DNA of 64,000 nt from Bacteroidota bacterium (lineage in GTDB: Bacteria; CLD3; SB21), in contig JBBIJR010000003.1 in the NCBI GenBank assembly GCA_037445875.1, forward strand, positions 13,109 through 77,108. Reading direction: 5' to 3'. The position numbers and the translations under genes were made by a program. Under the pieces are notes generated by a model. That model saw only the letters and a list, made by a program, of their open reading frames with translations. It had not been told where the DNA came from and did not search any database. Of this stretch, positions 33,401 to 55,335 are shown in pieces (position 1 is the stretch's first letter; the number at the start of each line of letters is the position of its first letter).

Positions 33401-33565
33401 ATTTTCAACGACCTGCCCGAGCTGCCGTCGAACGTCAACCCTACGGTCTTCCGCGACCACGAGTGGATCGTGCTCAAGTGTCTCGAAAAAGATCCCGCTC
33501 ACCGGTACCAATCGTGCGAAGAATTACTCAAGGATTTCCGTTCGGTACACCGGTTGCTGCACTGA
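30416..33565 (+). CDS. Receptor-type Ser/Thr protein kinase: signal peptide, about 10 two-component-regulator-propeller (Reg_prop) repeats, Y_Y_Y domain, one TM helix, then a C-terminal STK domain
   Basis: Repeated GxxxGLxxW / G..G..WVGT motifs. YYY region FQVTGIDFRAEKHLMYQYFLEGFDANW. TM WWFRGTLLTVLIVSVPYAA. Kinase VIb catalytic loop HRDLKSENIML and DFG. Confidence 0.8.
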   Translation: MTRTPHILIGIALLTGSLAAQKYSVTTYGAADGLLPFAVERLHQDPLGNLWMTTSGGLMMYNGKSFRSFGPEEGLPAYATRAIAQDADKGIWVGTLGGGAARITRLSTGDYSLRAFTRENGLPDNSVLSLLAAADGSLWVGTKGGLAHIRRDRSDTLHVLRTWQEPIVNCMYQAKDGSLWFGDMSGAVHVIAGDTLRSIPVFPPHASGVTGLAEDAVGDLWVTSFAGGARKLHWVRGRWAAFSDASTREVPAEVFHVHRDGAGRLWFATFGEGVVSYDGRRFQSFSTANGLPENNTVCTFVDRQGLLWVGTANSGLCKRGDLPFVFFDKETGLPGNLVLDVIADRRGFMWVSCYESGLVRFDGTSIRGFSRREGLTSRKVYALMETADGRIWVSTMGEGVFVYDGKRFKRFRSSYLLTDVLCMFEDREGQIWFGTDTHGAVRLSRDGSLLQFTPEQGLAGLRVFSILQDRRGRIWFGCGQPSRLKEAGGVSVWDPVRFLRNLRPFVTYDKQNGFPSNEVIALYEDRDGAVWLGTRHHGLFSFSNEQFTPFGKREGLLSNTVTAIGEDRRGRLWVGTVKGLHVRTPGGFDVYTKAQGLLSDEIYENAMALDRDGRLWLGTPGGLCRFRVDDLDARPSPPSLYVDRVLSNGQPLEADGMTDLSHARNDIDFQVTGIDFRAEKHLMYQYFLEGFDANWRDPTPRDYLSYTNLEPRSYVFHARVSGSSGAWSDPVTMPFIIHPAFWQTWWFRGTLLTVLIVSVPYAARVSRSAFHRFQTWRRNRTIAHYRLKGLIGEGAMGSVYEAYDRTARKTVALKVIHRRLMEDPENQSRFEREGRILSKLSHPNVVRVYAAGQWMGRGYIAMEVLPNGNLRDYVSKHFPLDLKTTARLLTEIAEGLAYIHGLNIVHRDLKSENIMLDERWRPKIMDFGLSKSTLVTTMTQVGTIMGTLGYVAPEQVTGHKVDQRSDLFSFGVIMYEMLTRMLPFRGENEIALIHSIFNDLPELPSNVNPTVFRDHEWIVLKCLEKDPAHRYQSCEELLKDFRSVHRLLH

Positions 33566-35840: not shown

Positions 35841-35980
35841 GCGTCAGGGTTTCACACGCCGCTGTCCCTTTGAGGGGCGTATCTCCGCACCGCCTCGAGC
35901 GAGGTTCCGATGGTTGTTGAAATCGGTGTTCTTGTTCTTGTTTCCGTTCTATGCGCTTTTTTACTACTAAGGAGGAGGTC

Positions 35981-41049: not shown

Positions 41050-42159
41050 GTGAGCAAACGAACTGTTCTGACCCTGACTTGTTGCCTCTTGGCAGCCTGG
41101 AATATCCGAGCCCAGGATCTGAAAGGTGCCATCGAGAATCTCGCAACGGACGCGGCCAGAGCGTACGTCCGGCCGGTGGTGTCCGGCTTCGGCAGCGATC
41201 TTAACACGGGTTGGTTTCATCGCGCGCCAAAAGCGCAGAGGCTGGGATTCAACGTGGAAGTCGGCTTTGTGGCGATGGGTACGCTGTTCAACAAGAAGGA
41301 CAAGCGCTTCTCCGTGACGAAGAATCTGACAATCACGGAAGACGAGGCGACTCGTTTAGCCACGACGTTTGTTGAAAACGATCCCACACTCAGCCAGTTG
41401 ACAGGTACTTTCAAGGACCAGGCGATTGCCACCATTGCAAACGAGATCGCCGATCAGATCGTCAATGTCACGATAGCCGGCGCGACCTTTATCGGGGACA
41501 AAGAGGATACCGTGAAATTGACCATCAACAACGACATCTTGTTCACCTACAACAGTCAATCCTACACGATGCAGAACGGTCAAGAGACCAACCTCGGTGT
41601 GGGCGGATTGCTGGACGCGCCCGTTGTTCCTTTGCTTGCGCCTCAACTTACGGTTGGAACTGTCATGGGCTCTCAGCTGACGATACGCTACGTGCCAACG
41701 GTTAAACTCAAAGATGAGGTGGGAAAAGTCAACTACTTCGGCATTGGCATTCAACACAATCCGGGCGTGTGGTTCCCGCAGCCGCTCCCGGTCGACCTCG
41801 CCGTTGCTTTCTACACGCAGAATCTCAAGCAGGGGAAGCTGTTTGAGGCAACGGCTACGGCCTACGGGATCACAGCCAGCAAGCAGTTCGGTTTCCGGTT
41901 CCTCAACCTCACTCCGTACGCCGGATTCCTGCTCGAGTCGTCGGAAATGAAGTTCAAGTATGACTACTCTTACACCGTACCCGATGGTAGCGGAGGTCTG
42001 GCGACTGAAACGGCCAAGATTTCCTTTACCGAGAAAGGCAAGAACAAGAACCGCATCACGATCGGCACCAATATTCGCTTTCTCATGGTCAACATAAACG
42101 CGGACTACAGTTTTGCGAAGAACTCAGCCTATAGCGCGGGGATAAACTTCGCCCTCTAA
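41050..42159 (+). CDS. Secreted hypothetical protein with a signal peptide
   Basis: GTG start. MSKRTVLTLTCCLLAAWNIRAQD. No recognisable domain. Confidence 0.5.
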   Translation: MSKRTVLTLTCCLLAAWNIRAQDLKGAIENLATDAARAYVRPVVSGFGSDLNTGWFHRAPKAQRLGFNVEVGFVAMGTLFNKKDKRFSVTKNLTITEDEATRLATTFVENDPTLSQLTGTFKDQAIATIANEIADQIVNVTIAGATFIGDKEDTVKLTINNDILFTYNSQSYTMQNGQETNLGVGGLLDAPVVPLLAPQLTVGTVMGSQLTIRYVPTVKLKDEVGKVNYFGIGIQHNPGVWFPQPLPVDLAVAFYTQNLKQGKLFEATATAYGITASKQFGFRFLNLTPYAGFLLESSEMKFKYDYSYTVPDGSGGLATETAKISFTEKGKNKNRITIGTNIRFLMVNINADYSFAKNSAYSAGINFAL

Positions 42160-42215: not shown

Positions 42216-42809
42216 CTGGCGTGCACGGTACAACCGAATGGCCTCCCGGTAATCCTCCGCTGTGTTCATGTTGAAGAAAACGTGAGGATGGGACGCGGCT
42301 GTCACATTCTCGGCCGGAACCACCAGCGTGGGCAGCTGTCCGTACAGCCGTTGGATGGCAAAGTCCTCGCGAACCATCATGTCTTCGATCGTCGAAAGAC
42401 ATTTCTTCGAATAGACCGCGCATAAGGACTCGTACCCTTGCGGCCCCTTCGGCACGACGATGTTGTACGATGCGGCTCGATCCAGTAAGAACGTGCCGGC
42501 CCGATGGTCGAACAACGGCAGGTCGCACGCCAGCACAATGTTCACCTCGTGTTCCGACTCACTCAACCCGGCGTGAATGCCGCTCAATGCGCACTCCGCT
42601 GCGTAGCGGTCTCTTACGATGCGAACACCCACCGGGGGTATTAGCCCAGGCTGCTTGGTCACCACGGCAACGTCCGGCGTCAGACGGCGAAGCTCTCCGA
42701 TCAAGTGTTCGAGTAATGTCGTGTGATGAAAGGGGAGGAGGAACTTGTCGGCGCCCATACGTTCGGAGCGGCCGCCGGCGAGAACTATGGCGCCGCACTC
42801 AGCGGGCAT
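42201..42809 (-). CDS. mobA: Molybdenum cofactor guanylyltransferase
   Basis: Inside ORF 42201..43106. Start MPAECGAIVLAGGRSERMGADKFLL (MobA N-terminal motif). Confidence 0.75.
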   Translation of the reverse strand: MPAECGAIVLAGGRSERMGADKFLLPFHHTTLLEHLIGELRRLTPDVAVVTKQPGLIPPVGVRIVRDRYAAECALSGIHAGLSESEHEVNIVLACDLPLFDHRAGTFLLDRAASYNIVVPKGPQGYESLCAVYSKKCLSTIEDMMVREDFAIQRLYGQLPTLVVPAENVTAASHPHVFFNMNTAEDYREAIRLYRARQNRKG

Positions 42810-43737
42810 CGTCCTTTTCGTATAGCACGGCCTTCCGGAATTTCTCCGGACCGGCCCGGTCGATCCGGTACTCGTACCCGTTGGTCCACAACACGAGCCG
42901 CTCCGCCGACACCTCGAGCCGGGGCTTCTTGAAGTAATTCGTGTAGCGGGTGTTATCCAGGTAGACGCTGAGCACGTCCTGGTCGAAATGAACGTAGAAC
43001 CACAACAGGCGCCCGTCTTCATCCTCTTGCATCGGCTTGATGTTGACCGCCGACAGGTCGACCGGATTCTTGAAGCGCAGCCGCGACTCGATCGTCCCGG
43101 ACTCACGGATCAACGTCAGCGGAAGTTCGATCGTCCTCGGCATCAGCAGATCCTCGGCGCGGAATCTCTGACTGTGTTTGGCCGGGATCGTCTCGGCCGG
43201 CGCGGAGTATGTCTGCGGTCGCGTGACGATCGTTCCTTTCCCCGTGCTCTTTTTTGCCAGAGGGCCTTTCGCCGCGGACTCCTCGGACGGTTTTGGTTTT
43301 TCGGCTCCGGACTCAACCGATGCGGGCGATTGAACCGGCGAGGCCTTTTCTTTGACCGACTCTTCCGCGACCGGGGTTTCGGGCGTCCGGTACACCACAC
43401 GGTACACCAGGTAGGACAACCCCGCCACGATCAGGATCGCCGCAGCTACTTTGAGCAAACGCGGCCGAATCGAACGCGGTGTCGCTCCGCCCTCAATCAA
43501 TTGCAGGACCGGCCCGTCGGACCGGAGTTGGTCCTTCAGCCGTTGTTTCAAGTCGACCCGTCCCTGCTGCCGGACTGCCGCTACGATGGCCTGCGTCAAC
43601 GCCAGTTCCTCTGCCGCGTCGGGATCCGAGGCCAGCAGCCGCTCGAGCCTGCGCCGCTCTTCGTCGCTCAGCCGCCCGAGGACGTATCGATCCAGCACGT
43701 CGTCTTGCTCAAGCCATTGTCTCTCTCGGTCGTTCAT
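42799..43737 (-). CDS. Anti-sigma factor: cytoplasmic anti-sigma N-terminal domain, one TM helix, periplasmic C-terminal domain
   Basis: MNDRERQWLEQDDVLDRYVLGRLSDEERRRLERLL... TM LLKVAAAILIVAGLSYLVY. Immediately downstream of an ECF sigma gene. Confidence 0.6.
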   Translation of the reverse strand: MNDRERQWLEQDDVLDRYVLGRLSDEERRRLERLLASDPDAAEELALTQAIVAAVRQQGRVDLKQRLKDQLRSDGPVLQLIEGGATPRSIRPRLLKVAAAILIVAGLSYLVYRVVYRTPETPVAEESVKEKASPVQSPASVESGAEKPKPSEESAAKGPLAKKSTGKGTIVTRPQTYSAPAETIPAKHSQRFRAEDLLMPRTIELPLTLIRESGTIESRLRFKNPVDLSAVNIKPMQEDEDGRLLWFYVHFDQDVLSVYLDNTRYTNYFKKPRLEVSAERLVLWTNGYEYRIDRAGPEKFRKAVLYEKDDAR

Positions 43738-43741
43738 TCGA

Positions 43742-44335
43742 TCACTTTCGCGGATCCTTCAAGTAGTCCCGGACCCGTTTTTCCAGTTCTTTCTTGCACT
43801 GCCATTTCTTCGCTTTCGCCACGTCGGTGTTGGCAAACCGCATGGCGCGGGCGATTTCTTCCATGCCCTTTTCTTCGAGGTAGAACATCGTAAGAACCTT
43901 CCGGCACGTGGCGCCGAGGGAGTGAATGCACTTCAGTACGACCTGGTACTGCTCGGTATGGATGATCTCCCGGAGAGCATCGATGCGCTCTTCCGCGATG
44001 GGGTGCTGGTCGTCCAGGGGACCCACTTTGCCCACCTTGCGCTTGCTGATCTCCCGCAGCCACTTGTTCCTCACCACCGAATAGACGTACGTGCTGATCT
44101 TGGACGTGAGATCGAAATCGCCTCGCGCGACATTTTCCCAAAGAACAATCAACGCGTCCTGGAGCATGTCCTCCGCATCTTCTTCGCGGCCGCTGTTGTC
44201 CAGGACGAACTTGCGGACCATCAGGATGTTGCTGCGGTAGAGCTGGGCGAGCGCGCTCTCGTCACCGCGGCGCATTCGGTCGATGATCTGCCGGTCCGAT
44301 TCCGCCGTGGCCGTCTCATACGCCGCGGGTTTCAC
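43742..44335 (-). CDS. RNA polymerase sigma-70 factor, ECF subfamily
   Basis: Region 2 and region 4 motifs (DAEDMLQDALIVLW; LTMFYLEEKGMEEIARAM). Confidence 0.85.
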   Translation of the reverse strand: MKPAAYETATAESDRQIIDRMRRGDESALAQLYRSNILMVRKFVLDNSGREEDAEDMLQDALIVLWENVARGDFDLTSKISTYVYSVVRNKWLREISKRKVGKVGPLDDQHPIAEERIDALREIIHTEQYQVVLKCIHSLGATCRKVLTMFYLEEKGMEEIARAMRFANTDVAKAKKWQCKKELEKRVRDYLKDPRK

Positions 44336-45390: not shown

Positions 45391-45606
45391 GCGTAGCGGA
45401 TTCACATGATCCTGCAACGATAAACCGGAGTGGATTTCGAACGGTCTAAGATAGTGGATTGCGGTCTCAGTTCCAAATGGTCTGCGGCAGACGCGACGGT
45501 GCTGGCCAACTTCAATTATTTCCGGTACTTTGACGTTGCTTTTCAGAGGTCGAGTCGGTATATTGCCCATCGCAACGTGAGGGTTTACCTCCAGTCCGTC
45601 AGATTC

Positions 45607-46605
45607 ATGAACATGTCAAACACGATCGAAGCGCGATATTATCACACGGACGGAGACACCGTGGTGTGTGATCTCTGTCCTCGCACTTGCACACTCCGGA
45701 ACGGGGAAGAGGGCGACTGCTGGGGGTACCGGAACATCGATGGTAAACTGATCGCCGTGAGTTACGGGCAGCTCGTTGCCGCTTCCTACGACCCGATGGA
45801 GAAAAAACCGTTCTACCACTACTACCCCAACTCGACCATTCTTTCCATTGCGGCCAACGGATGCAACTTGCGTTGCAAGTTCTGCCAGAACTACGGCATG
45901 GCCCTGGAGCGGGCCGACAGCAAACACGTCACGCTGCAGACGCTCCTCGACTACTCCGGCAAGAGCCATTCCATCGGCGTGGCCTATTCTTTCACCGAGC
46001 CGCTCATGTGGTTCGAGTTCCTGATGGATGCCACGCGGAAACTGAAAGGCATCGGCCAGAAGAACATCATCGTCAGCAACGGATACGTCAACGACGAGCC
46101 GCTGAAGGAGATCCTTTCCTACATCGATGCGATCAACATCAGCGTCAAATCGATGCGTCAGGAAGCCTACGACCGCTTCATCGACGGAAAGGTCGATGTG
46201 GTCCTGCGTTCCATCGAATTGGCCAGCCGGCAGACGCATCTTGAGTTGACGTACCTGTTGATACCGGGTGTGAGCGACAGCGAAAAGGACGTCGGCGATT
46301 TCGTGGATTTCGTTGCGGGAGTCAGCAAGGATATCCCGGTCCATTTCAAACGTTTCTTCCCGCACTATCAGATGGCGGATTATCCGATGACGCCCAACGA
46401 AACCCTTGTCCGCGTGTACAAGCAGGCAAACCAGAAACTGAACTACATCTACCTGACCGATGCCGATATTGACGGCGTGTCGGACACGTTTTGTCCTAAT
46501 TGCAAACGTCTGATCATTAAGCGCCGGGATTACCAGTCCAATCTGGGGGGTATGCGCGGGCCCAATTGCAAATTCTGCGGACACCGGATTAATATCAAAT
46601 TCTAA
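45607..46605 (+). CDS. Radical SAM enzyme, pyruvate formate-lyase activase-like (AmmeMemoRadiSam-system type)
   Basis: Inside ORF 45430..46605. N-terminal Cys motif CDLCPRTC. Radical SAM motif CNLRCKFC. Confidence 0.65.
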   Translation: MNMSNTIEARYYHTDGDTVVCDLCPRTCTLRNGEEGDCWGYRNIDGKLIAVSYGQLVAASYDPMEKKPFYHYYPNSTILSIAANGCNLRCKFCQNYGMALERADSKHVTLQTLLDYSGKSHSIGVAYSFTEPLMWFEFLMDATRKLKGIGQKNIIVSNGYVNDEPLKEILSYIDAINISVKSMRQEAYDRFIDGKVDVVLRSIELASRQTHLELTYLLIPGVSDSEKDVGDFVDFVAGVSKDIPVHFKRFFPHYQMADYPMTPNETLVRVYKQANQKLNYIYLTDADIDGVSDTFCPNCKRLIIKRRDYQSNLGGMRGPNCKFCGHRINIKF

Positions 46606-46613
46606 CGCGAGGC

Positions 46614-47960
46614 TTGCTTATTTTCTCATTCGGGTGGGTGAAGAGCCGATCAACCGTTTTCAGGCGTCTCCTGGGATGCCTCGCGGCTGCGGCGCTGGTT
46701 GTACCGGCCGCCTGTGAAGACGGTGTCAACGATGTCGGCATCGAGGGATTTGACCGGGAGGGAGCGTCGGGCACGTTCGTTAGGGACACGCTGTACGTGT
46801 CGGCCCTGCTCAACGATACGTCGTTCGTGGATTCGATCACGACGTCGAGCGCCCGGCGGCTCTATCTCGGATCCGTCGACCAGTACGACTTCAGGATAGT
46901 CATGAAGTTTACCATGTCTTCCGTCGTCGAAAGCGTTCAGGTCCAGCAGGCTCGCATCGAAATGGTTCCGTCCGCATCCTACGGGGAAGGGACTACCCTG
47001 ACCGCGCGAATAAGGACCCTTCGCAAGAATTGGACCGAGTCGGACGTGTTGTGGACAAGATTCGATCCCGATGGTGACGGCGGGCCGGACGTATGGGACG
47101 TGCCGGTGGCCCGGAGCGATTCCGGCGGTACGCTGTGGGTCTGGACCGTGCCGCGGGACACGGTCCAGCAGTGGGTATACGCTCGCAAGGACACAAACCG
47201 GAAGAACTTCGGAATGATCATCGATTTCCAGTCCGGGGCGAACTTTGTGCAGCAGTTTTACAGCGCCAGCGTGGTCAATTCCAGTAATGTGCCCGACCCG
47301 GACAAAGCTCCGCGCCTCGTGTTCAGTTACACGAAACTGGATGGTGATGTTGTGACAGAGGACTCGATCAAGATCTATCCCGCGATCACGCGGACGAGCA
47401 CCGGGTCACAGGTGTATGACGGAGGGCGGAGCGGATACCTGTACCGCGACCGGGCGGCCCAGCCGGCCGACGAGTTGTGGGTGGGCGGGGGTGTCGTGTA
47501 TCATTCGTTCCTCTATTTCAACGCGGAAACCGTCCCCGTAACGTCCACCGTCACGAGCGCTCAGCTGGTGATGCCGCTGGACCCTGCGGGGCGATACCGG
47601 TACTTGCCGTCGGATTCGGTACACCTGCAGGCGGCACGCCTGACGTCGGGCCCCTCCACCTGGCAGGCGGGCAGCGTCACGATCCGAAGCGACGACGCCT
47701 TTTATCTCCTGAACAACGCGACCAAGCGGGCACGCCTGACGGGCCTCATCGCCAATGACACGCTCCGCGTGACCATCACCGAGCAGATGCAGGAATGGGT
47801 GTCCTCGCCCTCGTCCAACTACGGACTCCGGCTGTTCGGGGCGGATGAGCTCTCGGGAGATTTCAACCGTCTATACCGTGTCCGATTCAAACGATCGAAC
47901 ACCGATTCGCTTGGATCGCCGCAGGTCATACTCCAGTACACGAGGCCGCCGGACAACTAG
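46614..47960 (+). CDS. Hypothetical lipoprotein
   Basis: Lipobox VVPAAC. No confident domain assignment. Confidence 0.5.
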   Translation: MLIFSFGWVKSRSTVFRRLLGCLAAAALVVPAACEDGVNDVGIEGFDREGASGTFVRDTLYVSALLNDTSFVDSITTSSARRLYLGSVDQYDFRIVMKFTMSSVVESVQVQQARIEMVPSASYGEGTTLTARIRTLRKNWTESDVLWTRFDPDGDGGPDVWDVPVARSDSGGTLWVWTVPRDTVQQWVYARKDTNRKNFGMIIDFQSGANFVQQFYSASVVNSSNVPDPDKAPRLVFSYTKLDGDVVTEDSIKIYPAITRTSTGSQVYDGGRSGYLYRDRAAQPADELWVGGGVVYHSFLYFNAETVPVTSTVTSAQLVMPLDPAGRYRYLPSDSVHLQAARLTSGPSTWQAGSVTIRSDDAFYLLNNATKRARLTGLIANDTLRVTITEQMQEWVSSPSSNYGLRLFGADELSGDFNRLYRVRFKRSNTDSLGSPQVILQYTRPPDN

Positions 47961-47962
47961 CT

Positions 47963-49174
47963 ATGCATAAGGTGATGTTTACATCGTGGATTCTCTTCGG
48001 AGCCTTGGTGCCTCTGAGTGCCGCCCGCGCGGGGGGTTCGTCGTATTCCTCCAACGGCTACGGACTTACGGACCTTCACGCCAATACGCGCTCCACCGGG
48101 ATGGGGCGACTCGGTATCGCCGTGCCGAGCGGTTCGTCGATCAATCTCTTCAATCCTGCGGCCCTCATGGGCCTGAACCTGGTCCGGATGGACCTTGCCA
48201 TGTACTACGAACAAGTGCAGACCAAGACGTCGGCCGCCACAGCCAATTCCAACACCGTGAATGTCAACCACGGGGCCTTTGCGATACCGTTCGGGACGAG
48301 ACTGGCGATGGCTCTGAGCGTTTCACGCTATACAAAGCTCGGTTACGACTTCGCCGTTCGGGCCGTTACAGAGGACGGCGTTGCATATGAAGAGCGTTTC
48401 ACGGGATCGGGCGGAGCGCAGGTGGTTGGATTTACCGTGGCGGGCAAGCCTGCGGACCACTGGAGTGCCGGCCTGAGCCTTCAATACGTACTGGGGAGCA
48501 TCACTCGCGCGTGGAACGTAACGTGGGACTCTCCGGATTTCGTGGCCACCAACGACGTGCGCGAGGAGCACTTCTACGGGATGCGGTGGACGCTGGGAGG
48601 CTTGTATCAGCAGCCGCGCTATACGGTCGGCGGTTTCCTCGCCGTCAACAACCGGCTGACCAGCGATCTTGATTACAGTCGATCGGCGTCCGATACAACC
48701 GAATCGCGCAGCCGGGGACTGGATTTTCCGGCGGAATTTGGTCTCGGCGTGACTTATCTTCCCTCACCGAGGTGGCTGGCGGGAATGGACTTTGTTTTCA
48801 CAGGTTGGAAATCCTTTGAGATTGCCGGGGAGGATCCCGGTTATCGTAACACGTTTAGAATCAGCGTAGGAGCCGAAAGGGCACCGAGCGCGGAACTATC
48901 GGCCCACTATTTGCAGACATTGCACTATAGAATAGGCGCATACTACCAGACGCTATACGCACGCAATCCCAGCGGCCATCACGCCGGTGAGCTGTTCCTT
49001 ACGTGGGGCATGGGTATACCGGTAGCGCGCGGACGGCACACGCTGGATCTTGGGTTCGAGTTGGGAACACGGGGAACGATCTCCACCAACGAGGTCCGTG
49101 AAACCGTGTTCAGGCTTACCCTTGCCGTATCCGGGGGCGAGCGCTGGTTCCAGGTCAGAAAAAGAAAACCGTAA
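47963..49174 (+). CDS. Outer-membrane beta-barrel protein, PorV/FadL-like
   Basis: Signal peptide. N-terminal G.G..A..NPAAL-type motif (TGMGRLGIAVPSGSSINLFNPAALM). Amphipathic strands. Confidence 0.55.
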   Translation: MHKVMFTSWILFGALVPLSAARAGGSSYSSNGYGLTDLHANTRSTGMGRLGIAVPSGSSINLFNPAALMGLNLVRMDLAMYYEQVQTKTSAATANSNTVNVNHGAFAIPFGTRLAMALSVSRYTKLGYDFAVRAVTEDGVAYEERFTGSGGAQVVGFTVAGKPADHWSAGLSLQYVLGSITRAWNVTWDSPDFVATNDVREEHFYGMRWTLGGLYQQPRYTVGGFLAVNNRLTSDLDYSRSASDTTESRSRGLDFPAEFGLGVTYLPSPRWLAGMDFVFTGWKSFEIAGEDPGYRNTFRISVGAERAPSAELSAHYLQTLHYRIGAYYQTLYARNPSGHHAGELFLTWGMGIPVARGRHTLDLGFELGTRGTISTNEVRETVFRLTLAVSGGERWFQVRKRKP

Positions 49175-49201
49175 GGATTTCAAGAACAAGGAAAACCGGT
49201 T

Positions 49202-50440
49202 ATGAAGAAGCTGAACGGATTGATTCTCTCACTCGTCGTCACGATTGCCGCAGCCTCCCACGGACAGAATGTGAAAGAAGGTACGCCGGAGTTCGAGTGT
49301 ATCAAGACCTGGAGTACGGCCAGTGAGTACTACAAGAACGGGGAATTCCAGAATTCGATCCCATATTTTTGGACGGCGATGACTTGCGATATGACGCTGC
49401 GTCCGCAAAAAGAGAAGCGGCTGTTTACCAGTGTCTACGACAAACTGTCCGATTCCTACTTTCAGTTGCAGCAGATCGACAGCGCCGTTGCCGTCCTGAA
49501 ACTGGGTTACCGCGACCTGGAGGACAACGGCTACATGTACAAGATCGGCGAAATGTTCCACCGCAGCCTCAAGCAGTACGATTCGGCCGCCGTCTACTAC
49601 CGCCGTTACTACGACATGTCCGGCTCTGTGGAGGAATTGAAGCGCATCGCCGGCATGTGGATCGAAGCGGCCAAGTATCAGGAAGCGCTGAAGGTTTACG
49701 AAGAGTACCTGAAGAAGAACCCGACGGACCAGGAAACGTGGGTATACGTGCTGGATTCGTTTAAGAGTTTCTACATCAAGTATAACGGACGGGAAAAATG
49801 GCTGACGGCGTGCGACACGTTCGCCGTCTTCTTTCCTACGGCCTCCAAGGAATTCTACATCGGTGAGAAATTGGACGATCTTCTGAAAAAGGGTGAATAC
49901 GAAAAGGCCATCCGCACCGCCGATGAGATACTGGCCGTCGATGCGAACAGCAAGAGCGCGTGGATGAAAAAAGGCAAGGCACTGGATGCGCTTCGTAAGG
50001 GTAAGGAGGCCATCGAGTGCTATGAAAAGGCCTACGCGATCGATCCGCAGGATGCCGACTTGATATGCGATCTCGCACGCCTTTATCTGGACCAGGGCCA
50101 ACTGGCACGGACGTGGTCTCTGTGTTTGAAGGCCAAAGACATCAAGAAATTCGGCCGGCCGTACTTTCTGATCGGCGAAGCGATTCGCGACGGCATTCGG
50201 CGGTGTTCGGGCAACACGCTGACCATGCCGGCCAAGGAAGCCTATCTGGTCGCGGCCAAGTATTACGACATGGCGGCGGCCTATCCGGACGTGGACGTGA
50301 ACGCGCGCACGATGGCGGGCACGAGCCGCCAGAACGGCCCGACGAAATCCGACTGTTTCATGGGCAGCCTGGGTAAACTGAAGAACGACCCGTGTTACGA
50401 GTGGATGCCCGATCGCGATTATGCCAGTCCGTGCAAATGA
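49202..50440 (+). CDS. Secreted TPR-repeat protein
   Basis: Signal peptide and multiple TPR-like helices. Confidence 0.6.
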   Translation: MKKLNGLILSLVVTIAAASHGQNVKEGTPEFECIKTWSTASEYYKNGEFQNSIPYFWTAMTCDMTLRPQKEKRLFTSVYDKLSDSYFQLQQIDSAVAVLKLGYRDLEDNGYMYKIGEMFHRSLKQYDSAAVYYRRYYDMSGSVEELKRIAGMWIEAAKYQEALKVYEEYLKKNPTDQETWVYVLDSFKSFYIKYNGREKWLTACDTFAVFFPTASKEFYIGEKLDDLLKKGEYEKAIRTADEILAVDANSKSAWMKKGKALDALRKGKEAIECYEKAYAIDPQDADLICDLARLYLDQGQLARTWSLCLKAKDIKKFGRPYFLIGEAIRDGIRRCSGNTLTMPAKEAYLVAAKYYDMAAAYPDVDVNARTMAGTSRQNGPTKSDCFMGSLGKLKNDPCYEWMPDRDYASPCK

Positions 50441-50509
50441 GACCGGGTGCCGGCACGATTTACTTGTGTGCCGGATCGGCAATCAATATCGACCAAAGGA
50501 GGGCTAACC

Positions 50510-51331
50510 TTGAGAACATCCATCCTGATCCTGATAGGGGCCGCCGGTCTCTTGATACGGCCTGCAAGTACCCGCTCGCAAGAGATCGAAACCAAAGGCG
50601 GTTCGGAATCGACGGTGGCAAAGATCGAGCAGCGTCACCTGATCGACGTTCCGACCGCAGGGGTGATGGGCCGGGGACAGTATGAAGTCGGTATGCGGCT
50701 GTTCGATAACGGCGGTGTATTGGCACAGATCAACGTCGGCATCACCGATCGCTTCATGATCGGTATCGCCTACGGTGGAGAGCGGATCGTAGGTTCGGGC
50801 GAGATCAACTTTAACCCGCTGCCCGGCGTGGATGTACGTTACCGTATGATCGATGAAACCGAGGTCGGTCCGGCTGTCTCGGTCGGTTTCAGTTCTCAGG
50901 GATACGGGCCGTTCGTCAAGAATATTCGCACGGCGACCGACACAACGGAAGTGGATCGGTACACGCACAAGTCCCGCGGGCTGTTCGCCGCCGCGAGCAA
51001 GAACTACCGCTTTCTGGGGAACCTCGGCCTGCACGGCGGCATCAGCTGGGCTGCGCATGAAAAGAAAGACAAAGACAACCAGCCGACGGTGTTTGTCGGC
51101 ATGGACAAGAGTATCAACAACGAGCTCTCCGTCGTCGGGGAGTACGACCTGGCGCTGAACGACGACAAAGACCTGATTGGCCACGGGCGGGGATACCTCA
51201 ACGTGGGCGCCAAGCTCAATTTTGGCAACGAGGTCCTGTTTGAACTTATGATGCGGGACCTCTTGAACAACTCAAAGGACTTTGGCAAGTTTGCACGAGA
51301 GGTTCGGTTGTCCATCGTGCGCGCGTTCTGA
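50510..51331 (+). CDS. Secreted hypothetical protein, possibly a small outer-membrane barrel
   Basis: Inside ORF 50447..51331. AAGGAGG RBS, then TTG start (LRTSILILIGAAGLLIRPAS). Confidence 0.45.
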   Translation: MRTSILILIGAAGLLIRPASTRSQEIETKGGSESTVAKIEQRHLIDVPTAGVMGRGQYEVGMRLFDNGGVLAQINVGITDRFMIGIAYGGERIVGSGEINFNPLPGVDVRYRMIDETEVGPAVSVGFSSQGYGPFVKNIRTATDTTEVDRYTHKSRGLFAAASKNYRFLGNLGLHGGISWAAHEKKDKDNQPTVFVGMDKSINNELSVVGEYDLALNDDKDLIGHGRGYLNVGAKLNFGNEVLFELMMRDLLNNSKDFGKFAREVRLSIVRAF

Positions 51332-51422
51332 CGGCCGAACCTCGTATGAAATAAGCTCTTAGCTAAATCGTTCTACCTGTAGGCCGGCCCTGCCGGCAGA
51401 AAAAGAAAGAGCAGGTGGGGAT

Positions 51423-52379
51423 ATGAAGATTCGAGCGTATTCATGGCTCATGGCCTGCGTTGTCACCGCCTTCGCAGGCTTTGCCGTCTCCGGTTGTTAT
51501 ACGGTTTTGAAACAATCGAATGAGTACTATCAGGAGTTCGACGACGGGTCCGGCGAGTACGCGGCCGATGCGGAAGAGGCCGTGGAGGATTCGGTAGTGG
51601 AAGGGGAAGAAACCGATGAGGATCAACCCCAGACGACCATCTACAATCGGTACTATTACGGTTACCATCCGTGGTCCTATCCCGGTTTCGGCTACTACTA
51701 TTCACCTTACCGTTGGACCGTCGCGTTCGGATGGACGTATTGGCCGCCCTATTATTACGGCTACTACGATCCATGGTGGGATTACTATTACTGGGGCAAC
51801 TGTGGTTATCCGCGGTACTGGTGGCACGGGGGATGGCAGGGCCACGGCGGCCTTACTTACAATGTCCAACGGAATTACGGAGTGCGCCAGTACCGGACCC
51901 GGAGTTTCAATCCGGTGCCGGTCGGAGGATCGATATCCAGCGGCTCATCCTCGTCGTCCGGCTCAACGAAAGCAGGACAAACCTCACGCCGAACCTACAA
52001 GAACGCCGAAGGCAAGAGATCCGTCCGTTCGAAAGGCGGCAAAGCCGTTCGCGGCGACGGTAAAGGTTCCTCCACTCGACGGAAGGTCCGCGATGGAGAA
52101 GGCGTGAAGAACGAACCACGCACACGACCCAAGGACGGCCAGTCCGGGTCTCAGGGCCGCCGGCAGCCAAGGGGGGATACGGACAAGCCGAAGCGCAGTT
52201 CTCGTATCAGCTACGACTATGAATCGTTTTCAGGGTCCGCATACCGGACCGAATCGGTGAGTCCGTTCGCTACCCGTCCCTACGATAGCGTCGTCCGAAC
52301 GCCGTTCGTGGATCGTTCGACTTCAACCTCAACAGAATCCGGAGGCTCCGGTACGAGCCGTCGTGAGACCAAACGCTAG
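51423..52379 (+). CDS. Lipoprotein with an acidic linker, an extreme Tyr/Trp/Pro/Gly-rich aromatic segment, and a basic R/K/G/S-rich tail
   Basis: Lipobox FAVSGC. ..YYYGYHPWSYPGFGYYYSPYRW..WPPYYYGYYDPWWDYYYWGNCGYPRYWWHGGWQGHGG.. Confidence 0.55.
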   Translation: MKIRAYSWLMACVVTAFAGFAVSGCYTVLKQSNEYYQEFDDGSGEYAADAEEAVEDSVVEGEETDEDQPQTTIYNRYYYGYHPWSYPGFGYYYSPYRWTVAFGWTYWPPYYYGYYDPWWDYYYWGNCGYPRYWWHGGWQGHGGLTYNVQRNYGVRQYRTRSFNPVPVGGSISSGSSSSSGSTKAGQTSRRTYKNAEGKRSVRSKGGKAVRGDGKGSSTRRKVRDGEGVKNEPRTRPKDGQSGSQGRRQPRGDTDKPKRSSRISYDYESFSGSAYRTESVSPFATRPYDSVVRTPFVDRSTSTSTESGGSGTSRRETKR

Positions 52380-52387
52380 GCCTGACC

Positions 52388-52936
52388 GTGAAAACTCTTC
52401 TCACGCTGGGGTTGCCCGCCTGGTTGGTATTGGTCCTGGCGCCCGGCTGTTATACGGTTATCCGTCACACGGCCCCACCCACGGCCGAAACGACGGATGA
52501 TATCGAGCAAGAAGAAGCGACCGTAGACCATGCGAGCGCCTGTCTGAATTGCCACGAGGGAGCCTTCGACGGTTACGATTACGCCTTCCATCCCCCGCGG
52601 GAACACGTGCAAGGATTCGACCGATGGTCCGACTACTACGGATACGTGACTCCGTGGTGGGTGGTTTACGCGGAAGGTCCAGCAGTCGGAGATACTGAAG
52701 AGGAAGGCGCGCCCTTGCAGAGGAACTACGGTCGACGGAGGAGCGCTGCCCAAACGGAAACAACGGCGACGGGAGCCGGGACCTACCAAGCCGCGGGCGG
52801 GGGGCAAACCGGCGGCGGATCCACTTACGTGGCCAGTTCCGATACATCGCGGCCCCACAACAACGATACGATTAACAAGAGCGGCACGAGCGGAAAGCAG
52901 CGCGACTATGGAACGCGCCGCACGAAGAAAAAGTGA
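52388..52936 (+). CDS. Shorter paralog of the upstream lipoprotein (same GCYTV(L/I) lipobox context, acidic then aromatic then basic layout)
   Basis: Lipobox LAPGCYTVIRHT versus VSGCYTVLKQS in the neighbour. ..DYYGYVTPWWVVY.. NYGRRR... Basic tail. Confidence 0.55.
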   Translation: MKTLLTLGLPAWLVLVLAPGCYTVIRHTAPPTAETTDDIEQEEATVDHASACLNCHEGAFDGYDYAFHPPREHVQGFDRWSDYYGYVTPWWVVYAEGPAVGDTEEEGAPLQRNYGRRRSAAQTETTATGAGTYQAAGGGQTGGGSTYVASSDTSRPHNNDTINKSGTSGKQRDYGTRRTKKK

Positions 52937-52955
52937 GTTCGGAAAGGACGATCGT

Positions 52956-54287
52956 ATGATCAGGCGGATGATTGCAGCGGTTATCGCCATTGGAGTACTC
53001 TCAGGGGGACGGACGTTCGGACAATCGGAAGAGGATGCCGTGCGTCCTTTCCTGCATGAATTCGGTCCCGGGGCGCGGGCGCTGGCCATGGGTGGGGCGT
53101 ACGCGGCGCTGGCCGAGGACTATACGGCCGTCTACTGGAATCCGGCCGGTCTGGCGCAAATTCGGAAGATGGAATTCGCCGCCAGCCTGTCTCACACGCG
53201 GATCAACAACGAAATCGGATACTACGGTACGGTGGCCGACAACACGAACGGTTTCACAAAGTTCAACTCGGTGGGCATGGTCTTCCCGGTGCCGACCTAC
53301 CGGGGAAGTCTGGTGTTTGCGGTCGGGTACAATCGTGTCGGGCATTACGACGATTTTAGCGAGGTGATCGGGTGGGCCCCCCTGTCCACCGGAGGGCGTT
53401 TCTATCAGAGCGAGCGGACCACCGTCGACGGGGGCCTCAATCAGTGGGCCTTCTCCGGCGCCGTGGATCTGACGCGGTCCCTGTCCGTTGGGGCCACACT
53501 GAACCTGCTGGTGGGCGGCGACAACACGGCCATCACCTATCTGGAAGACGACCAGGAGGATGTGTTGACGTCCGAAATCCGTACGGTCGATATCGGCGTC
53601 GACAAGGATTTCACGGGTGTAAGCCTCAAAGCGGGCGCTCTGGGCAAACCGACGGAGAATCTCCGGATCGCCGTCACCGCGACTACCCCGCAGCGCGTCG
53701 TCGTGGAGGAACGATCCACACTCTACGACTACCTGAGATACGATGACGGGGTTGAAGACCCCATCAGCGACGATTCATACCGGAAGTACACGATATACTC
53801 GCCCTGGAAATTCGAGATCGGCGCATCCTACAAGTATCGATTAGCCACCGTGTCGTCAACGCTGGAATTCTTGGACTGGACAGAAAGCGAGTTCCGCTCG
53901 AATATCGTGGATGATGAAGGCCGCGACATCGATGGCGATCTGAACGCCAGTATCCGCAAAAACTATCGAAGCGTCGTCAATGTGAGGATGGGCGGAGAAG
54001 TGCTGGTGCCTGCGCTTGGGGTTAAGGCGATGGCGGGCTATGCCACGCAGACGTCCCCCCTGAAGACGTCGGTCGAATCGGTCAATAGCAATCGCCAGTA
54101 TCTCTCCGGAGGCGTCAGTTTTCTCCTTGACAAGCAGGTGAAGATCGATCTGGCTTACCAATACGGTTGGTGGAAACAATCCACCGTCGACGATCTCTTA
54201 GGACAGGACGATCTCAATCGCTATTACAGTACCAGCGAGAAGATCCGAACGAACAGACTGCTGTTGAGCCTGAGTTATCGGTTCTGA
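52956..54287 (+). CDS. Outer-membrane beta-barrel protein, PorV/FadL-like, with C-terminal Phe
   Basis: Inside ORF 52908..54287. Start MIRRMIAAVIAIGVLSG. ARALAMGGAYAALAEDYTAVYWNPAGLA motif. Ends ..LSLSYRF. Confidence 0.6.
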   Translation: MIRRMIAAVIAIGVLSGGRTFGQSEEDAVRPFLHEFGPGARALAMGGAYAALAEDYTAVYWNPAGLAQIRKMEFAASLSHTRINNEIGYYGTVADNTNGFTKFNSVGMVFPVPTYRGSLVFAVGYNRVGHYDDFSEVIGWAPLSTGGRFYQSERTTVDGGLNQWAFSGAVDLTRSLSVGATLNLLVGGDNTAITYLEDDQEDVLTSEIRTVDIGVDKDFTGVSLKAGALGKPTENLRIAVTATTPQRVVVEERSTLYDYLRYDDGVEDPISDDSYRKYTIYSPWKFEIGASYKYRLATVSSTLEFLDWTESEFRSNIVDDEGRDIDGDLNASIRKNYRSVVNVRMGGEVLVPALGVKAMAGYATQTSPLKTSVESVNSNRQYLSGGVSFLLDKQVKIDLAYQYGWWKQSTVDDLLGQDDLNRYYSTSEKIRTNRLLLSLSYRF

Positions 54288-54324
54288 TCGGTATTCCGAG
54301 CCAATCTTTCTTTATCGACGTCCT

Positions 54325-55335
54325 ATGAGTTGTCCCCTGTCTGTGCGGATCGGGGGACTGCTTTTGATCCTCGGTGCGAGCGCCGCCCAGGCCCAACAAA
54401 CCCTCGATACGCGATTTCCCCTCCTCCGATCGAATTTCTCCGCCATCATTTCGGATTCCGCCCTCATCGAGGCAACTCGTTCGATCCGCGGAGAACGGCT
54501 GGCCGTTCTCATCGACACGCTGGCCAGCGATTCGTTTGCGGGACGGGCCACGGGAAGTGCGGGATACGATCGCGCCGCCCGTTGGGTCGCGGAAAAACTG
54601 ATCCGAGCCGGAGTACGGCCTCTCCCGTCGTCGGAAAGCTTGTTCCAACAGTTCAAGTTGCCCACGGACGATGTTCGATCGCGCGTCCACCTGGATGACC
54701 CGGGCACCGACTCGATCCTGACCGCAAACGTCGTGGGTTGGCTGCCGGGTTCCGACGACAGTCTCTCGCGCGAGTTCATTGCCGTAACGGCGCACCTGGA
54801 CCACCTGGGCCGGAAGGGCGATTCCGTCTTTTATGGGGCAAACGACAATTCGAGCGGTGTTTCTGTGATGCTTACGGTGGCCCAGATCATGGCCGACCAC
54901 GCCGTGCTCCACCGCCGCTCGATCCTGTTTGCGGCATTTAGCGGCGAAGAGGTCGGCCTCAAGGGGTCTGAATACTTCGTGCACCATGCCCCCATTCCGC
55001 TGTCCTCGATCGGGCTGCTCATCAATCTCGATCTGGTGGGCTCCGGAAAGGAGGGGCTCATGCTGCAGGGCCTCGATGTGTTTCCAGGCCACTGGAGACG
55101 GTTCGAGGAAATCAATGGAGGATTGGGTTTCGAATTGAAGACCAGGCCGAACTCGCCGAATTCCGATCACTACCACTTTCACATGGCCGGCGTTCCTGCG
55201 GTCTTCATCTACGCGTACAACGGTACCGTACCGTACCATTCCGTACTCGATCGACCGGAGCGGCTGGATCGAGACGTTCTGGAAAACGTGGCTCGCTTTG
55301 TACTCCTGTCGACCTGGAGCTTCGCCAATCGCTAG
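54325..55335 (+). CDS. M28-family peptidase (aminopeptidase), secreted
   Basis: AHLDHLG..GANDNSSG..FSGEEVGLKGS metal-binding pattern. Confidence 0.8.
   Translation: MSCPLSVRIGGLLLILGASAAQAQQTLDTRFPLLRSNFSAIISDSALIEATRSIRGERLAVLIDTLASDSFAGRATGSAGYDRAARWVAEKLIRAGVRPLPSSESLFQQFKLPTDDVRSRVHLDDPGTDSILTANVVGWLPGSDDSLSREFIAVTAHLDHLGRKGDSVFYGANDNSSGVSVMLTVAQIMADHAVLHRRSILFAAFSGEEVGLKGSEYFVHHAPIPLSSIGLLINLDLVGSGKEGLMLQGLDVFPGHWRRFEEINGGLGFELKTRPNSPNSDHYHFHMAGVPAVFIYAYNGTVPYHSVLDRPERLDRDVLENVARFVLLSTWSFANR

What the first reader, a model, noticed from the sequence alone, without database searches (positions are those of the whole stretch)
46614..55335. Eight co-directional, tightly packed envelope genes: lipoprotein, PorV/FadL-like barrel, TPR protein, small barrel, two paralogous aromatic-rich lipoproteins, second PorV/FadL-like barrel, M28 peptidase
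Every product has a signal peptide or lipobox. The gaps are 2-90 nt and all genes are on the + strand. Both larger barrels share the N-terminal glycine/NPA(G/A)L motif seen in PorV/FadL-type proteins, and the second ends in the OMP C-terminal Phe (..SYRF). None of the non-enzymatic members has an assignable function. The unit looks like an outer-membrane complex, possibly a cargo-shuttle or secretion-associated system, that I could not match to a described one.
Basis: inference. Interest (0 to 1): 0.65.

Follow-up and report, generated by a model that had tools for sequence, protein, structure and literature searches.

The report
Outer-membrane assembly genes plus unknown module
The eight genes are real but are not one unknown machine: the first two encode BamH and BamG, recently described parts of the outer-membrane protein assembly machine of Bacteroidota-type bacteria, and four others form a separate, widely conserved set of two barrels and one or two odd lipoproteins whose function nobody has described.

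Summary
In detail: eight co-directional, tightly spaced genes at 46614-55335, each product with a signal peptide or lipobox. The cluster is a composite.

- **g4-g5-g6-g7 are a separate conserved module.**
  - g4 is a 12-stranded barrel (KdgM/FapF-like).
  - g5 and g6 are lipoproteins that start Cys-Tyr-Thr.
  - g7 is a FadL-family barrel closest to BamG.
  - The module recurs without g1, g2, g3 or g8 in Ignavibacteria, Melioribacter, Calditrichota, KSB1 and Latescibacterota. g7 lies near g4 in 68 of 80 species-level loci.
- **g3 (TPR) and g8 (M28) join only in the window's own lineage.** There the whole order, plus an upstream radical-SAM gene, is kept in 13 genomes.

I found no description of the module in the literature.

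My best reading, which is inference, is that g7 docks the conserved lipidated N-terminus of g5/g6 as BamG docks BamH, and that g4 is a partner channel. No T9SS signature is present.

The pair is a new member of a known kind. The module is a new variant.

The parts
45430..46605 (+). AmmeMemoRadiSam-type radical-SAM enzyme (cytoplasmic). It lies directly upstream, is co-directional, and ends 8 nt before g1. It is probably co-transcribed but is not an envelope protein.
   Evidence: NCBIfam TIGR04337 scores 243.5 bits against cut-off 220. It is kept in this position in 11 of 13 genomes of the close lineage.
46614..47960 (+). g1: BamH-like surface lipoprotein with two DNRLRE/CBM96-like jelly-roll domains.
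47963..49174 (+). g2: BamG orthologue, a FadL-fold barrel subunit of the Bacteroidota/FCB-type BAM complex.
   Evidence: phmmer against PDB gives full-length matches: BtBamG 9hiv_F E 8.1e-29, FjBamG 9n2d_B E 2.6e-21, PgBamG 9hjm_F E 1.9e-19. NCBIfam BamG scores 236.6 bits against cut-off 250. The N-terminal S-x-Y-..-GYG extension and the C-terminal ERWF motif both align with BtBamG.
49202..50440 (+). g3: secreted TPR protein, probably periplasmic. It is present only in the window's lineage.
   Evidence: Pfam TPR_14 E 2.8e-15, and only generic TPR hits otherwise. A signal peptide is present. It is found in 11 of 13 close genomes and in none of the distant ones.
50510..51331 (+). g4: stand-alone 12-stranded outer-membrane barrel, first gene of the conserved module. 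The maximal ORF starts at 50447.
51423..52379 (+). g5: long 'Cys-Tyr-Thr' lipoprotein with an acidic N-part, a Tyr/Trp-rich core and a basic Ser/Gly/Arg-rich tail.
   Evidence: Lipobox AVSGC|YTV. 53 long-class homologues have a median mature length of 300 aa, up to 46% Y/W in a 50-aa window, and net charge -9 over the first 70 aa and +15 over the last 120 aa. No Pfam or NCBIfam hit.
52388..52936 (+). g6: short 'Cys-Tyr-Thr' lipoprotein, a paralogue of g5. It carries CLNCH (a CxxCH motif), His at +6 after the lipid Cys, and a PWW motif.
   Evidence: BLASTP g5 against g6 gives E 6e-7. CxxCH is present in 14 of 28 short-class homologues. It co-occurs with His at +5..+8 in 12 of 14 cases, against 1 of 14 without the motif (Fisher 7e-5). 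PWW is present in 23 of 28.
52956..54287 (+). g7: FadL-family 14-strand-type barrel, a distinct subfamily closest to BamG. It is the partner of the Cys-Tyr-Thr lipoproteins. The maximal ORF starts at 52908.
   Evidence: Pfam Toluene_X scores 42.1 bits against cut-off 29.7, over the full length. NCBIfam BamG 71.7 bits and PorV_fam 56.9 bits are both below cut-off. All 21 family members behave the same way. The family profile against PDB puts BtBamG on top at 4.6e-11. In 58 of 66 homologues the gene is directly preceded by a Cys-Tyr-Thr lipoprotein gene.
54325..55335 (+). g8: secreted M28 metallopeptidase, a lineage-specific last gene.
   Evidence: Pfam Peptidase_M28 E 1.8e-36, covering 190 of 193 profile positions. 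It is linked only in the close lineage.

Best explanation
The locus is a composite envelope operon of an uncultured FCB-group bacterium (MAGs labelled 'Bacteroidota bacterium').

(1) g1-g2 encode BamH and BamG. BamG is the FadL-fold barrel that binds the back of BamA. BamH is the surface lipoprotein that docks on BamG and roofs the folding site in the Bacteroidota-type BAM complex. Homology is shown here. The function is carried over from the published complexes.

(2) g4, g5, g6 and g7 are a separate, widely conserved module.
- g7 is a BamG-like FadL-family barrel.
- g5 is always encoded next to g7, and g6 often is. Both are lipoproteins with an almost invariant lipidated N-terminus, Cys-Tyr-Thr-(Gln/Val).
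- g4 is a 12-stranded barrel of the size class that carries a threaded or unfolded polypeptide (FapF, autotransporter beta-domains).

Proposed mechanism, by inference: g7 binds the conserved lipidated N-terminal peptide of g5/g6 at its lateral opening or groove, as BamG holds the BamH N-terminus. The long low-complexity parts of the lipoproteins (Tyr/Trp-rich core, basic tail) are held in, or passed through, g4. The result would be a two-barrel/lipoprotein outer-membrane complex.

(3) In the window's lineage this module has been placed in one transcription unit with bamHG, a periplasmic TPR protein (g3) and an M28 peptidase (g8). That suggests its assembly or function is tied to BAM there.
For: BamG:
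- Full-length matches to all three solved BamG chains.
- NCBIfam BamG E 5e-70.
- The conserved N-terminal extension and the C-terminal ERWF motif align with BtBamG. PMC12578637 names the N-terminal extension as the feature that separates BamG from FadL transporters.

BamH:
- DNRLRE domain.
- An invariant lipid Cys followed by acidic residues. The same acidic pattern is reported for BamH-K.
- g1 ends 2 nt before bamG. Adjacent bamG/bamH locus tags are listed for I. album, S. ruber, F. succinogenes, G. aurantiaca, C. abyssi and C. pinensis.

Module:
- The g4 family was found in 163 species genomes.
- In 80 fetched loci, g7 lies within 10 kb in 68. It lies directly downstream in 59. Only 3 loci with enough sequence lack it.
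- 58 of 66 g7 genes are directly preceded by a Cys-Tyr-Thr lipoprotein gene. This holds even where g4 lies 2.5-8 kb away, as in KSB1 and Calditrichota.
- The lipoprotein-then-FadL-barrel gene order mirrors bamH-bamG.
- BamG is the closest relative of g7, both among NCBIfam families and among solved structures.
- The g4 fold.

Link to BAM:
- The order rSAM-g1..g8 is kept in 13 genomes with only 33-51% identity in g1 and g2. The flanks differ between the window and L002.
Against: - No physical interaction was tested. The structure tools could not model complexes.
- g1 has no sequence-level match to BamH chains or to Pfam DUF4270. Foldseek did not list BamH in its top 50.
- g2 falls 13 bits short of the NCBIfam BamG cut-off. 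I cannot see whether the genome has another bamGH pair.
- The link between the module and bamHG exists in one lineage only. In that lineage a cytoplasmic radical-SAM gene is equally syntenic, so conserved order alone does not prove shared function.
- In all other lineages the neighbours of the module are housekeeping genes (cysS, recN, rsgA, penicillin amidase).
- g5 and g6 lack acidic residues within six positions of the lipid Cys, so they may face the periplasm rather than the surface.
- Latescibacterota loci have g4-g7 with no lipoprotein gene between them.
Confidence: 0.55

Rival explanations
1. All eight genes encode one dedicated machine: a lineage-specific, enlarged BAM complex. In this reading g3-g8 are extra BAM subunits that replace the Bacteroidia- or Flavobacterium-specific BamI-K or BamM/P.
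For: The gene order is strictly conserved with bamHG in 13 genomes. BamI-K and BamM/P are restricted to Bacteroidia and Flavobacterium, so other FCB lineages must complete the complex differently or not at all. g7 is the closest paralogue of BamG.
Against: In 60+ genomes of other FCB lineages the g4-g7 module is never within 10 kb of a BamG homologue. g3 and g8 are absent from those loci. A non-envelope radical-SAM gene shares the same conserved synteny.
Confidence: 0.2
2. g7 is an ordinary FadL/TodX-type uptake channel for hydrophobic substrates and g4 is a small solute porin of the KdgM/NanC type. The module would then be a nutrient-uptake locus, and the lipoproteins would be substrate-binding or accessory proteins.
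Against: No catabolic genes are consistently linked. The closest relatives of g7 are the non-transporting BamG and PorV branches. The invariant Cys-Tyr-Thr N-terminus and the extreme low-complexity make-up of the linked lipoproteins do not look like substrate-binding proteins.
Confidence: 0.12
3. The module is a T9SS-associated PorV/PorQ-like shuttle or attachment complex.
For: All 21 g7 family members hit the PorV/PorQ family model over the N-terminal 75 residues (best E 9e-16), and 20 hit 'PorV2'. The lineages concerned generally have T9SS (established knowledge). A T9SS-tailed cytochrome gene lies near the module in L046.
Against: All PorV, PorQ and PorV2 scores are far below the cut-offs (57 against 90, 42 against 325, 23 against 220-250). 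g5 and g6 are lipoproteins and have no T9SS C-terminal domain hit at E<=0.1. No T9SS gene is linked in the window or in the recurrent neighbours.
Confidence: 0.05
4. The module exports or anchors a surface polymer or fibre. It would be an analogue of GfcABCD/YjbEFGH (a two-barrel GfcD plus lipoprotein plus low-complexity GfcA) or of the FapF amyloid channel. The Tyr/Trp-rich lipoproteins would be the exported, matrix-forming cargo.
Against: The Pfam hit is below the cut-off. The top 150 relatives of g4 are stand-alone proteins of 245-300 aa, not YjbH-sized. No polysaccharide or amyloid genes are linked. The putative cargo is lipid-anchored.
Confidence: 0.08

Closest known systems
BamG-BamH of the Bacteroidota/FCB-type BAM complex (Liu et al., Nature 2025, PMC12611786; Silale et al., Nat Microbiol 2025, PMC12578637)
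   Different: g1 has no sequence-level similarity to DUF4270/BamH. g2 scores just under the NCBIfam cut-off. Here the pair sits in one block with six further envelope genes, which was not reported. g7 is only a distant BamG relative (72 bits). Its lipoprotein partners are low-complexity proteins unrelated to BamH.
PorV/PorQ (FadL-fold cargo shuttle and attachment-complex barrels of the type IX secretion system)
   Same: The FadL fold is shared. The N-terminal G-x-G-A-R-A-x-A-M-G-G-A ... NPAGL region of g7 resembles the PorV/PorQ family model.
   Different: Scores are far below the family cut-offs. The similarity is confined to about 75 N-terminal residues. No T9SS genes or C-terminal-domain cargo are linked.
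FadL/TodX/TbuX hydrophobic-substrate channels
   Same: g7 belongs to Pfam Toluene_X (OMPP1/FadL/TodX).
   Different: g7 has a conserved N-terminal extension, an obligate lipoprotein gene partner, and no catabolic gene context.
12-stranded barrels: KdgM/NanC porins, the FapF amyloid channel, autotransporter beta-domains, and the N-terminal barrel of YjbH/GfcD
   Different: No sequence relative has a solved structure. No coiled-coil or plug as in FapF, no passenger domain, and it is not fused to a second barrel.
RcsF-OmpA/C/F (a lipoprotein threaded through a barrel lumen and assembled by BAM)
   Same: Conceptual only: a lipoprotein with a long disordered segment encoded beside small barrels and, in this lineage, beside BAM subunits.
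   Different: No homology. The resemblance rests on my own knowledge and was not tested here.

Membership tests
BamG (BAM subunit, NCBIfam NF053685) | Whole-protein score above the curated NCBIfam cut-off (250 bits) | tested here: not met
   g2 scores 236.6 bits (E 5e-70), aligned over 394 of 397 profile positions. It is 13 bits short. g7 scores 71.7 bits.
BamG (BAM subunit, NCBIfam NF053685) | Full-length homology to experimentally defined BamG chains | tested here: met
   g2 against 9hiv_F (Bt) E 8.1e-29, 9n2d_B (Fj) E 2.6e-21 and 9hjm_F (Pg) E 1.9e-19. Each match covers about residues 7-400.
BamG (BAM subunit, NCBIfam NF053685) | Conserved N-terminal extension of about 10 residues that separates BamG from transporting FadL proteins (PMC12578637) | tested here: met
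   g2 residues 23-37 (GGSSYSSNGYGLTDL) align with BtBamG 25-39 (NTNSPYTRYGYGDLS), sharing S-x-Y and GYG. This rests on sequence alignment only, not on a structure.
BamG (BAM subunit, NCBIfam NF053685) | Physical association with the back of the BamA barrel; essentiality | not testable with these tools
   Needs a pull-down, cryo-EM or genetics. BamA is not in the window.
BamH (surface lipoprotein of BAM; Pfam DUF4270 in Bt and Pg) | Sequence membership of DUF4270, or similarity to solved BamH chains | tested here: not met
   No DUF4270 hit at E<=0.1. phmmer and a family profile against PDB sequences find no BamH.
BamH (surface lipoprotein of BAM; Pfam DUF4270 in Bt and Pg) | Fold: an elongated protein with a DNRLRE/CBM96-like (8wab-like) domain, similar to solved BamH | tested here: met
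BamH (surface lipoprotein of BAM; Pfam DUF4270 in Bt and Pg) | [quoted passage not shown] | tested here: met
   The window sequence reads C-E-D-G-V-N-D. Cys is invariant, and all 11 homologues have at least two Asp/Glu in that stretch.
BamH (surface lipoprotein of BAM; Pfam DUF4270 in Bt and Pg) | Gene adjacent to bamG (typical outside the Bacteroidia) | tested here: met
   The gap is 2 nt in the window. The adjacency is kept in all 13 close genomes. Adjacent locus tags appear in Supplementary Table 1 of PMC12611786.
PorV/PorQ (T9SS) | Score above the family cut-offs; linked T9SS genes or cargo with a C-terminal domain | tested here: not met
   g7: PorV_fam 56.9 against 90, PorQ 23.7 against 220, PorV 22.7 against 250, PorV2 42.2 against 325. 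g5 and g6 have no CTD hit. No T9SS genes were seen.
OMPP1/FadL/TodX (Pfam PF03349) | Score above the Pfam gathering threshold over the full-length profile | tested here: met
   g7 scores 42.1 bits against 29.7, covering profile positions 24-421 of 421. g2 scores only 15.1 bits.
YjbH/GfcD (Pfam PF06082) | Score above the gathering threshold; about 650-700 aa two-barrel architecture; yjbEFG/gfcABC partners | tested here: not met
   g4 scores 17.6 bits against 24, on the N-terminal 90 profile positions only. g4 relatives are 245-300 aa. No gfc-like partners are present.
c-type cytochrome (for g6) | A CxxCH haem-attachment motif in an exported protein, with a conserved axial ligand | tested here: inconclusive
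   g6 has CLNCH. The motif is in 14 of 28 short-class homologues and co-varies with His at +5..+8 (12 of 14 against 1 of 14, Fisher 7e-5, not corrected for phylogeny). Half the family lacks it. Haem binding cannot be tested here.

The most novel reading that the evidence does not exclude
The g4-g5-(g6)-g7 set is a previously unrecognised outer-membrane machine conserved across the non-Bacteroidia FCB lineages (Ignavibacteria, Calditrichota, KSB1, Latescibacterota and relatives). It would be a second BamG-like barrel that holds a lipoprotein by an invariant Cys-Tyr-Thr N-terminus, working with a 12-stranded channel. It would act either as a lineage-specific arm of BAM for building barrel-lipoprotein complexes or, where the short lipoprotein carries haem, as a minimal barrel-cytochrome conduit across the outer membrane.
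Probability: 0.25. Interest if true: 0.8.

Novelty: new variant of a known kind. Interest (0 to 1): 0.55.

Why it matters
BamG and BamH were described only in 2025, and the subunits that complete the complex outside Bacteroidia and Flavobacterium are unknown.

This locus places a bamHG pair in one conserved block with a second BamG-like barrel, a 12-stranded barrel and peculiar lipoproteins. The same barrel-lipoprotein module is present in several hundred sequence clusters across FCB phyla, including cultured strains (Melioribacter roseus, Rosettibacter primus). That gives a concrete, testable candidate for one of three things:
- new BAM-associated components;
- a new barrel-lipoprotein complex;
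- a small outer-membrane redox module.

If it turns out to be an ordinary uptake locus, the only gain is better annotation of two BAM genes in an uncultured lineage.

Tried and rejected
- **Wide g4 alignment for the genome scan.** A narrower alignment worked.
- **Exact-sequence look-ups of the window's own genes.** They returned a 3.4 kb Logan contig or nothing, so the organism name was not obtained.
- **Promoter and terminator scans.** They found no more sites than shuffled sequence, so the operon boundaries are not defined.
- **g3 against PDB.** Only designed or generic TPR proteins came back, with no BamD-like signal.
- **Neighbour clustering over 82 loci, looking for recurrent BAM, Lol, Lpt or T9SS neighbours of the module.** The recurrent neighbours are cysS, recN, rsgA, penicillin amidase, a TPR protein, DUF4292 and an M23 peptidase. 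This looks like inherited synteny within Ignavibacteria rather than a functional link.
- **Longer relatives of g4 as possible fusions with the lipoproteins.** The extensions are unrelated Lys/Pro/Ser-rich tails.
- **T9SS reading.** Rejected on score cut-offs and the absence of C-terminal domains.
- **Literature searches.** They found no paper describing the g4-g7 module.


Full report
**Observation**

The + strand of 46614-55335 carries eight consecutive ORFs. I call them g1 to g8.
- g1: 46614-47960
- g2: 47963-49174
- g3: 49202-50440
- g4: 50447/50510-51331
- g5: 51423-52379
- g6: 52388-52936
- g7: 52908/52956-54287
- g8: 54325-55335

Two starts need refining.
- g4 most likely starts at TTG 50510, six bases after AAAGGAGGG. 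That gives 273 aa, the length of its 97%-identical homologue.
- g7 starts at 52956, as in the NCBI record of this contig.

The gaps are then 2-91 nt. Every product has a type I signal peptide or a lipobox, read; the lipid Cys of g1 is invariant in homologues.

The co-directional run begins one gene earlier. An AmmeMemoRadiSam radical-SAM enzyme gene ends 8 nt before g1. Consensus scans found no terminator or promoter signal above chance inside the block.

**g2 is BamG**

- NCBIfam gives 'BamG family beta-barrel-assembly machinery protein' at E 5e-70 and 236.6 bits. That is just under the curated cut-off of 250.
- Against PDB sequences, g2 matches only three chains, each over its full length. 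They are the BamG subunits of the B. thetaiotaomicron (E 8e-29), F. johnsoniae (E 3e-21) and P. gingivalis (E 2e-19) BAM complexes.
- The alignment includes the N-terminal extension (S-x-Y...GYG). Silale et al. single this out as the feature that separates BamG from transporting FadL proteins. It also includes the C-terminal ERWF motif.

**g1 is BamH-like**

- It has two DNRLRE-type stretches (NCBIfam E 2.4e-19).
[quoted passage not shown] This is the pattern reported for the surface lipoproteins BamH-K.
- Sequence searches do not reach BamH.
- 8wab is the structure that Liu et al. name as the closest fold to BamH.
- Liu et al. state that BamG and BamH are conserved in six of the seven other FCB phyla. 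Their Supplementary Table 1 lists adjacent locus tags for the two genes in I. album, S. ruber, F. succinogenes, G. aurantiaca, C. abyssi and C. pinensis.

The g1-g2 pair is therefore a new member of a known kind.

**The rest of the cluster splits in two when compared across genomes**

A search with g4 found a family of small outer-membrane proteins. A scan of one genome per species found 163 genomes with a relative, and I fetched 80 loci with 10 kb flanks.

tblastn of all window proteins against these loci shows two patterns.

(a) In 13 genomes of the window's own lineage (MAGs labelled 'Bacteroidota bacterium' or 'bacterium'; g4 is 56-71% identical), the order rSAM-g1-g2-g3-g4-g5-g6-g7-g8 is kept.
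- g1 and g2 are only 33-51% identical there.
- g3 is missing in two of the genomes.
- The flanks outside the block differ between the window and L002.

(b) In Ignavibacteria, Melioribacter roseus, Rosettibacter primus, Calditrichota, KSB1 and Latescibacterota, only g4 and g7 are found. No g1, g2, g3 or g8 relative is linked.

Counts over the 80 loci:
- g7 is present in 68.
- It lies directly downstream of g4 in 59.
- It lies elsewhere within 10 kb in 9.
- 9 loci are cut off by contig ends.
- 3 loci have room but no g7.

**The genes between g4 and g7**

In 59 loci the interval encodes one or two lipoproteins. Their mature N-terminus is almost invariant: Gly-Cys-Tyr-Thr, then Gln (40 cases) or Val (26 cases).

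There are two classes.

Long class (53 proteins, like g5):
- median mature length 300 aa;
- first 70 residues with net charge -9;
- a core with up to 46% Tyr+Trp in 50 residues, and a DP[WFY][WFY] motif in 41 of 53;
- last 120 residues with net charge +15 and 60% Ser/Gly/Thr/Pro/Asn/Gln.

Short class (28 proteins, like g6):
- a PWW motif in 23;
- a CxxCH motif in 14.

Two further points:
- g5 and g6 are weak paralogues (E 6e-7).
- Where g7 is not next to g4 (KSB1 and Calditrichota loci), the long lipoprotein gene still sits immediately upstream of g7. Overall, 58 of 66 g7 genes are directly preceded by such a gene.

The tightest unit is therefore 'lipoprotein gene then FadL-type barrel gene', the same layout as bamH-bamG.

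**What g7 and g4 are**

g7:
- It passes the Pfam Toluene_X (FadL/TodX) threshold over the whole profile.
- Among NCBIfam models, its best hit is BamG at 72 bits. Next are the PorV/PorQ family (57 bits, N-terminal 75 residues only) and PorV2. All are far below their cut-offs.
- All 21 diverse family members behave the same way.
- A family profile against PDB ranks B. thetaiotaomicron BamG first (E 4.6e-11), ahead of FadL homologues, TbuX, CymD, PorV and TodX.
- g2 and g7 are not significantly similar by BLASTP.

g7 is thus a separate FadL-family branch, nearest to BamG.

g4:
- The AF2 model has about 90 pLDDT in the barrel strands and 12 long strands.
- The only sequence lead is a sub-threshold hit to the N-terminus of YjbH/GfcD. 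That N-terminal barrel has been described as FapF-like and 12-stranded (PMC8592465).
- An exhaustive HMMER search finds 820 clusters at 50% identity (606 at E<=1e-10). Almost all are stand-alone proteins of 245-300 aa.

**Mechanism**

Shown:
- homology of g2 to BamG and fold similarity of g1 to BamH;
- the separate conservation of g4, the Cys-Tyr-Thr lipoproteins and g7;
- the fold classes.

Inferred:
- g7 holds the conserved lipidated N-terminus of g5/g6. This follows how BamG wedges the conserved BamH N-terminus and places its acyl chains at the barrel interface.
- g4 accommodates or passes the long low-complexity segments. Its nearest fold relatives include barrels that carry an unfolded or threaded polypeptide.
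- The fusion with bamHG in one lineage points to assembly by BAM, or cooperation with it.

Weak points:
- No interaction was tested.
- The BAM link exists in one lineage, where a cytoplasmic radical-SAM gene is just as syntenic.
- g5 and g6 lack the acidic surface-export pattern.
- Latescibacterota have g4-g7 with no lipoprotein gene between them.

**Rivals**

I considered four alternatives:
- one enlarged BAM complex;
- an ordinary FadL-plus-porin uptake locus;
- a T9SS PorV-like shuttle;
- a Gfc/Fap-like polymer export system.

The T9SS reading is the weakest. Scores are far below the cut-offs, the lipoproteins have no C-terminal domains, and no T9SS, Bam or Lol gene appeared among 30 other window ORFs scanned. 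Recurrent neighbours of the module in other lineages are housekeeping genes.

**Novelty**

Literature searches found only the two 2025 BAM papers and their preprints for BamG and BamH. Nothing describes the g4-g7 module. Public annotations call its members 'hypothetical protein', 'YjbH domain-containing protein' or 'long-subunit fatty acid transport protein'.

- The bamHG pair is a new member of a known kind.
- The module is a new variant of the barrel-lipoprotein theme, with unknown function.
- The eight-gene block as a whole is lineage-specific.

**Verdict**

Interest is moderate at 0.55. Most of that interest lies in the conserved module and in its placement beside bamHG.

Noticed in passing
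window 52388-52936 (g6); homologues in L002, L007, L008, L010-L012, L028, L035, L045, L048, L061, L067, L073, L085: The short lipoprotein carries a CxxCH motif (CLNCH in the window) 21-38 residues after the lipid Cys. The motif co-occurs with a His 5-8 residues after the Cys in 12 of 14 cases, against 1 of 14 without the motif (Fisher 7e-5, not corrected for phylogeny). It could be a small haem c or metal site in an outer-membrane lipoprotein. Half of the family lacks it.
   Followed up: partly
window 45430-46605: An AmmeMemoRadiSam-type radical-SAM gene lies 8 nt upstream of bamH. It keeps that position in 11 of 13 genomes of the lineage. No AMMECR1 or Memo partner gene lies next to it. Why a cytoplasmic enzyme is locked to this envelope block is unexplained.
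   Followed up: partly
PMC12611786 Supplementary Table 1 (Caldithrix abyssi Cabys_3919): Liu et al. list a second 'BamG' without a BamH partner in Caldithrix abyssi. Calditrichota loci here carry g7 homologues, so that entry may be a g7 orthologue rather than a BamG paralogue. I did not test this.
   Followed up: no
window 30416-33565: A 1049-aa protein combines the two-component 'regulator propeller' and Y_Y_Y domains with a C-terminal eukaryotic-type Ser/Thr protein kinase domain (Pkinase E 3.7e-56). Such sensors usually carry a histidine kinase there instead.
   Followed up: no
window 35951-38272 and 41050-42159: Two further envelope-type genes lie upstream of the block. One is a 773-aa protein with repeated PQQ_2 (BamB-like) beta-propeller matches. 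The other is a DUF6588 protein (E 7e-47). An ECF sigma/anti-sigma pair lies at 42799-44335 on the - strand.
   Followed up: no
L078 14574-17170, L072 17503-18738 and 17-19 other Ignavibacteria/Melioribacteraceae loci: A 604-aa TPR protein, a DUF4292 protein and an M23 peptidase recur 5-8 kb downstream of the module. A penicillin amidase gene follows the module in 22 loci. This probably reflects inherited synteny, but DUF4292 may be envelope-related.
   Followed up: partly
L046 6126-8234 (Rosettibacter primus): A 702-aa protein with many CxxCH motifs and a T9SS-type C-terminal tail lies two genes upstream of the module, on the opposite strand.
   Followed up: no
L006 13690-16842 (Latescibacterota): A 1050-aa protein combines Peptidase_MA_2, PD40/Tricorn propellers and an Omp85 domain. 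It lies about 1.6 kb downstream of the g4-g7 pair on the opposite strand, next to a TPR protein.
   Followed up: no
P0143, P0161 (relatives of g4): Some g4-family barrels carry a C-terminal Lys/Pro/Ser/Glu-rich disordered extension of about 110 aa after the terminal aromatic residue. This is unusual for a barrel whose last strand normally ends the protein.
   Followed up: partly
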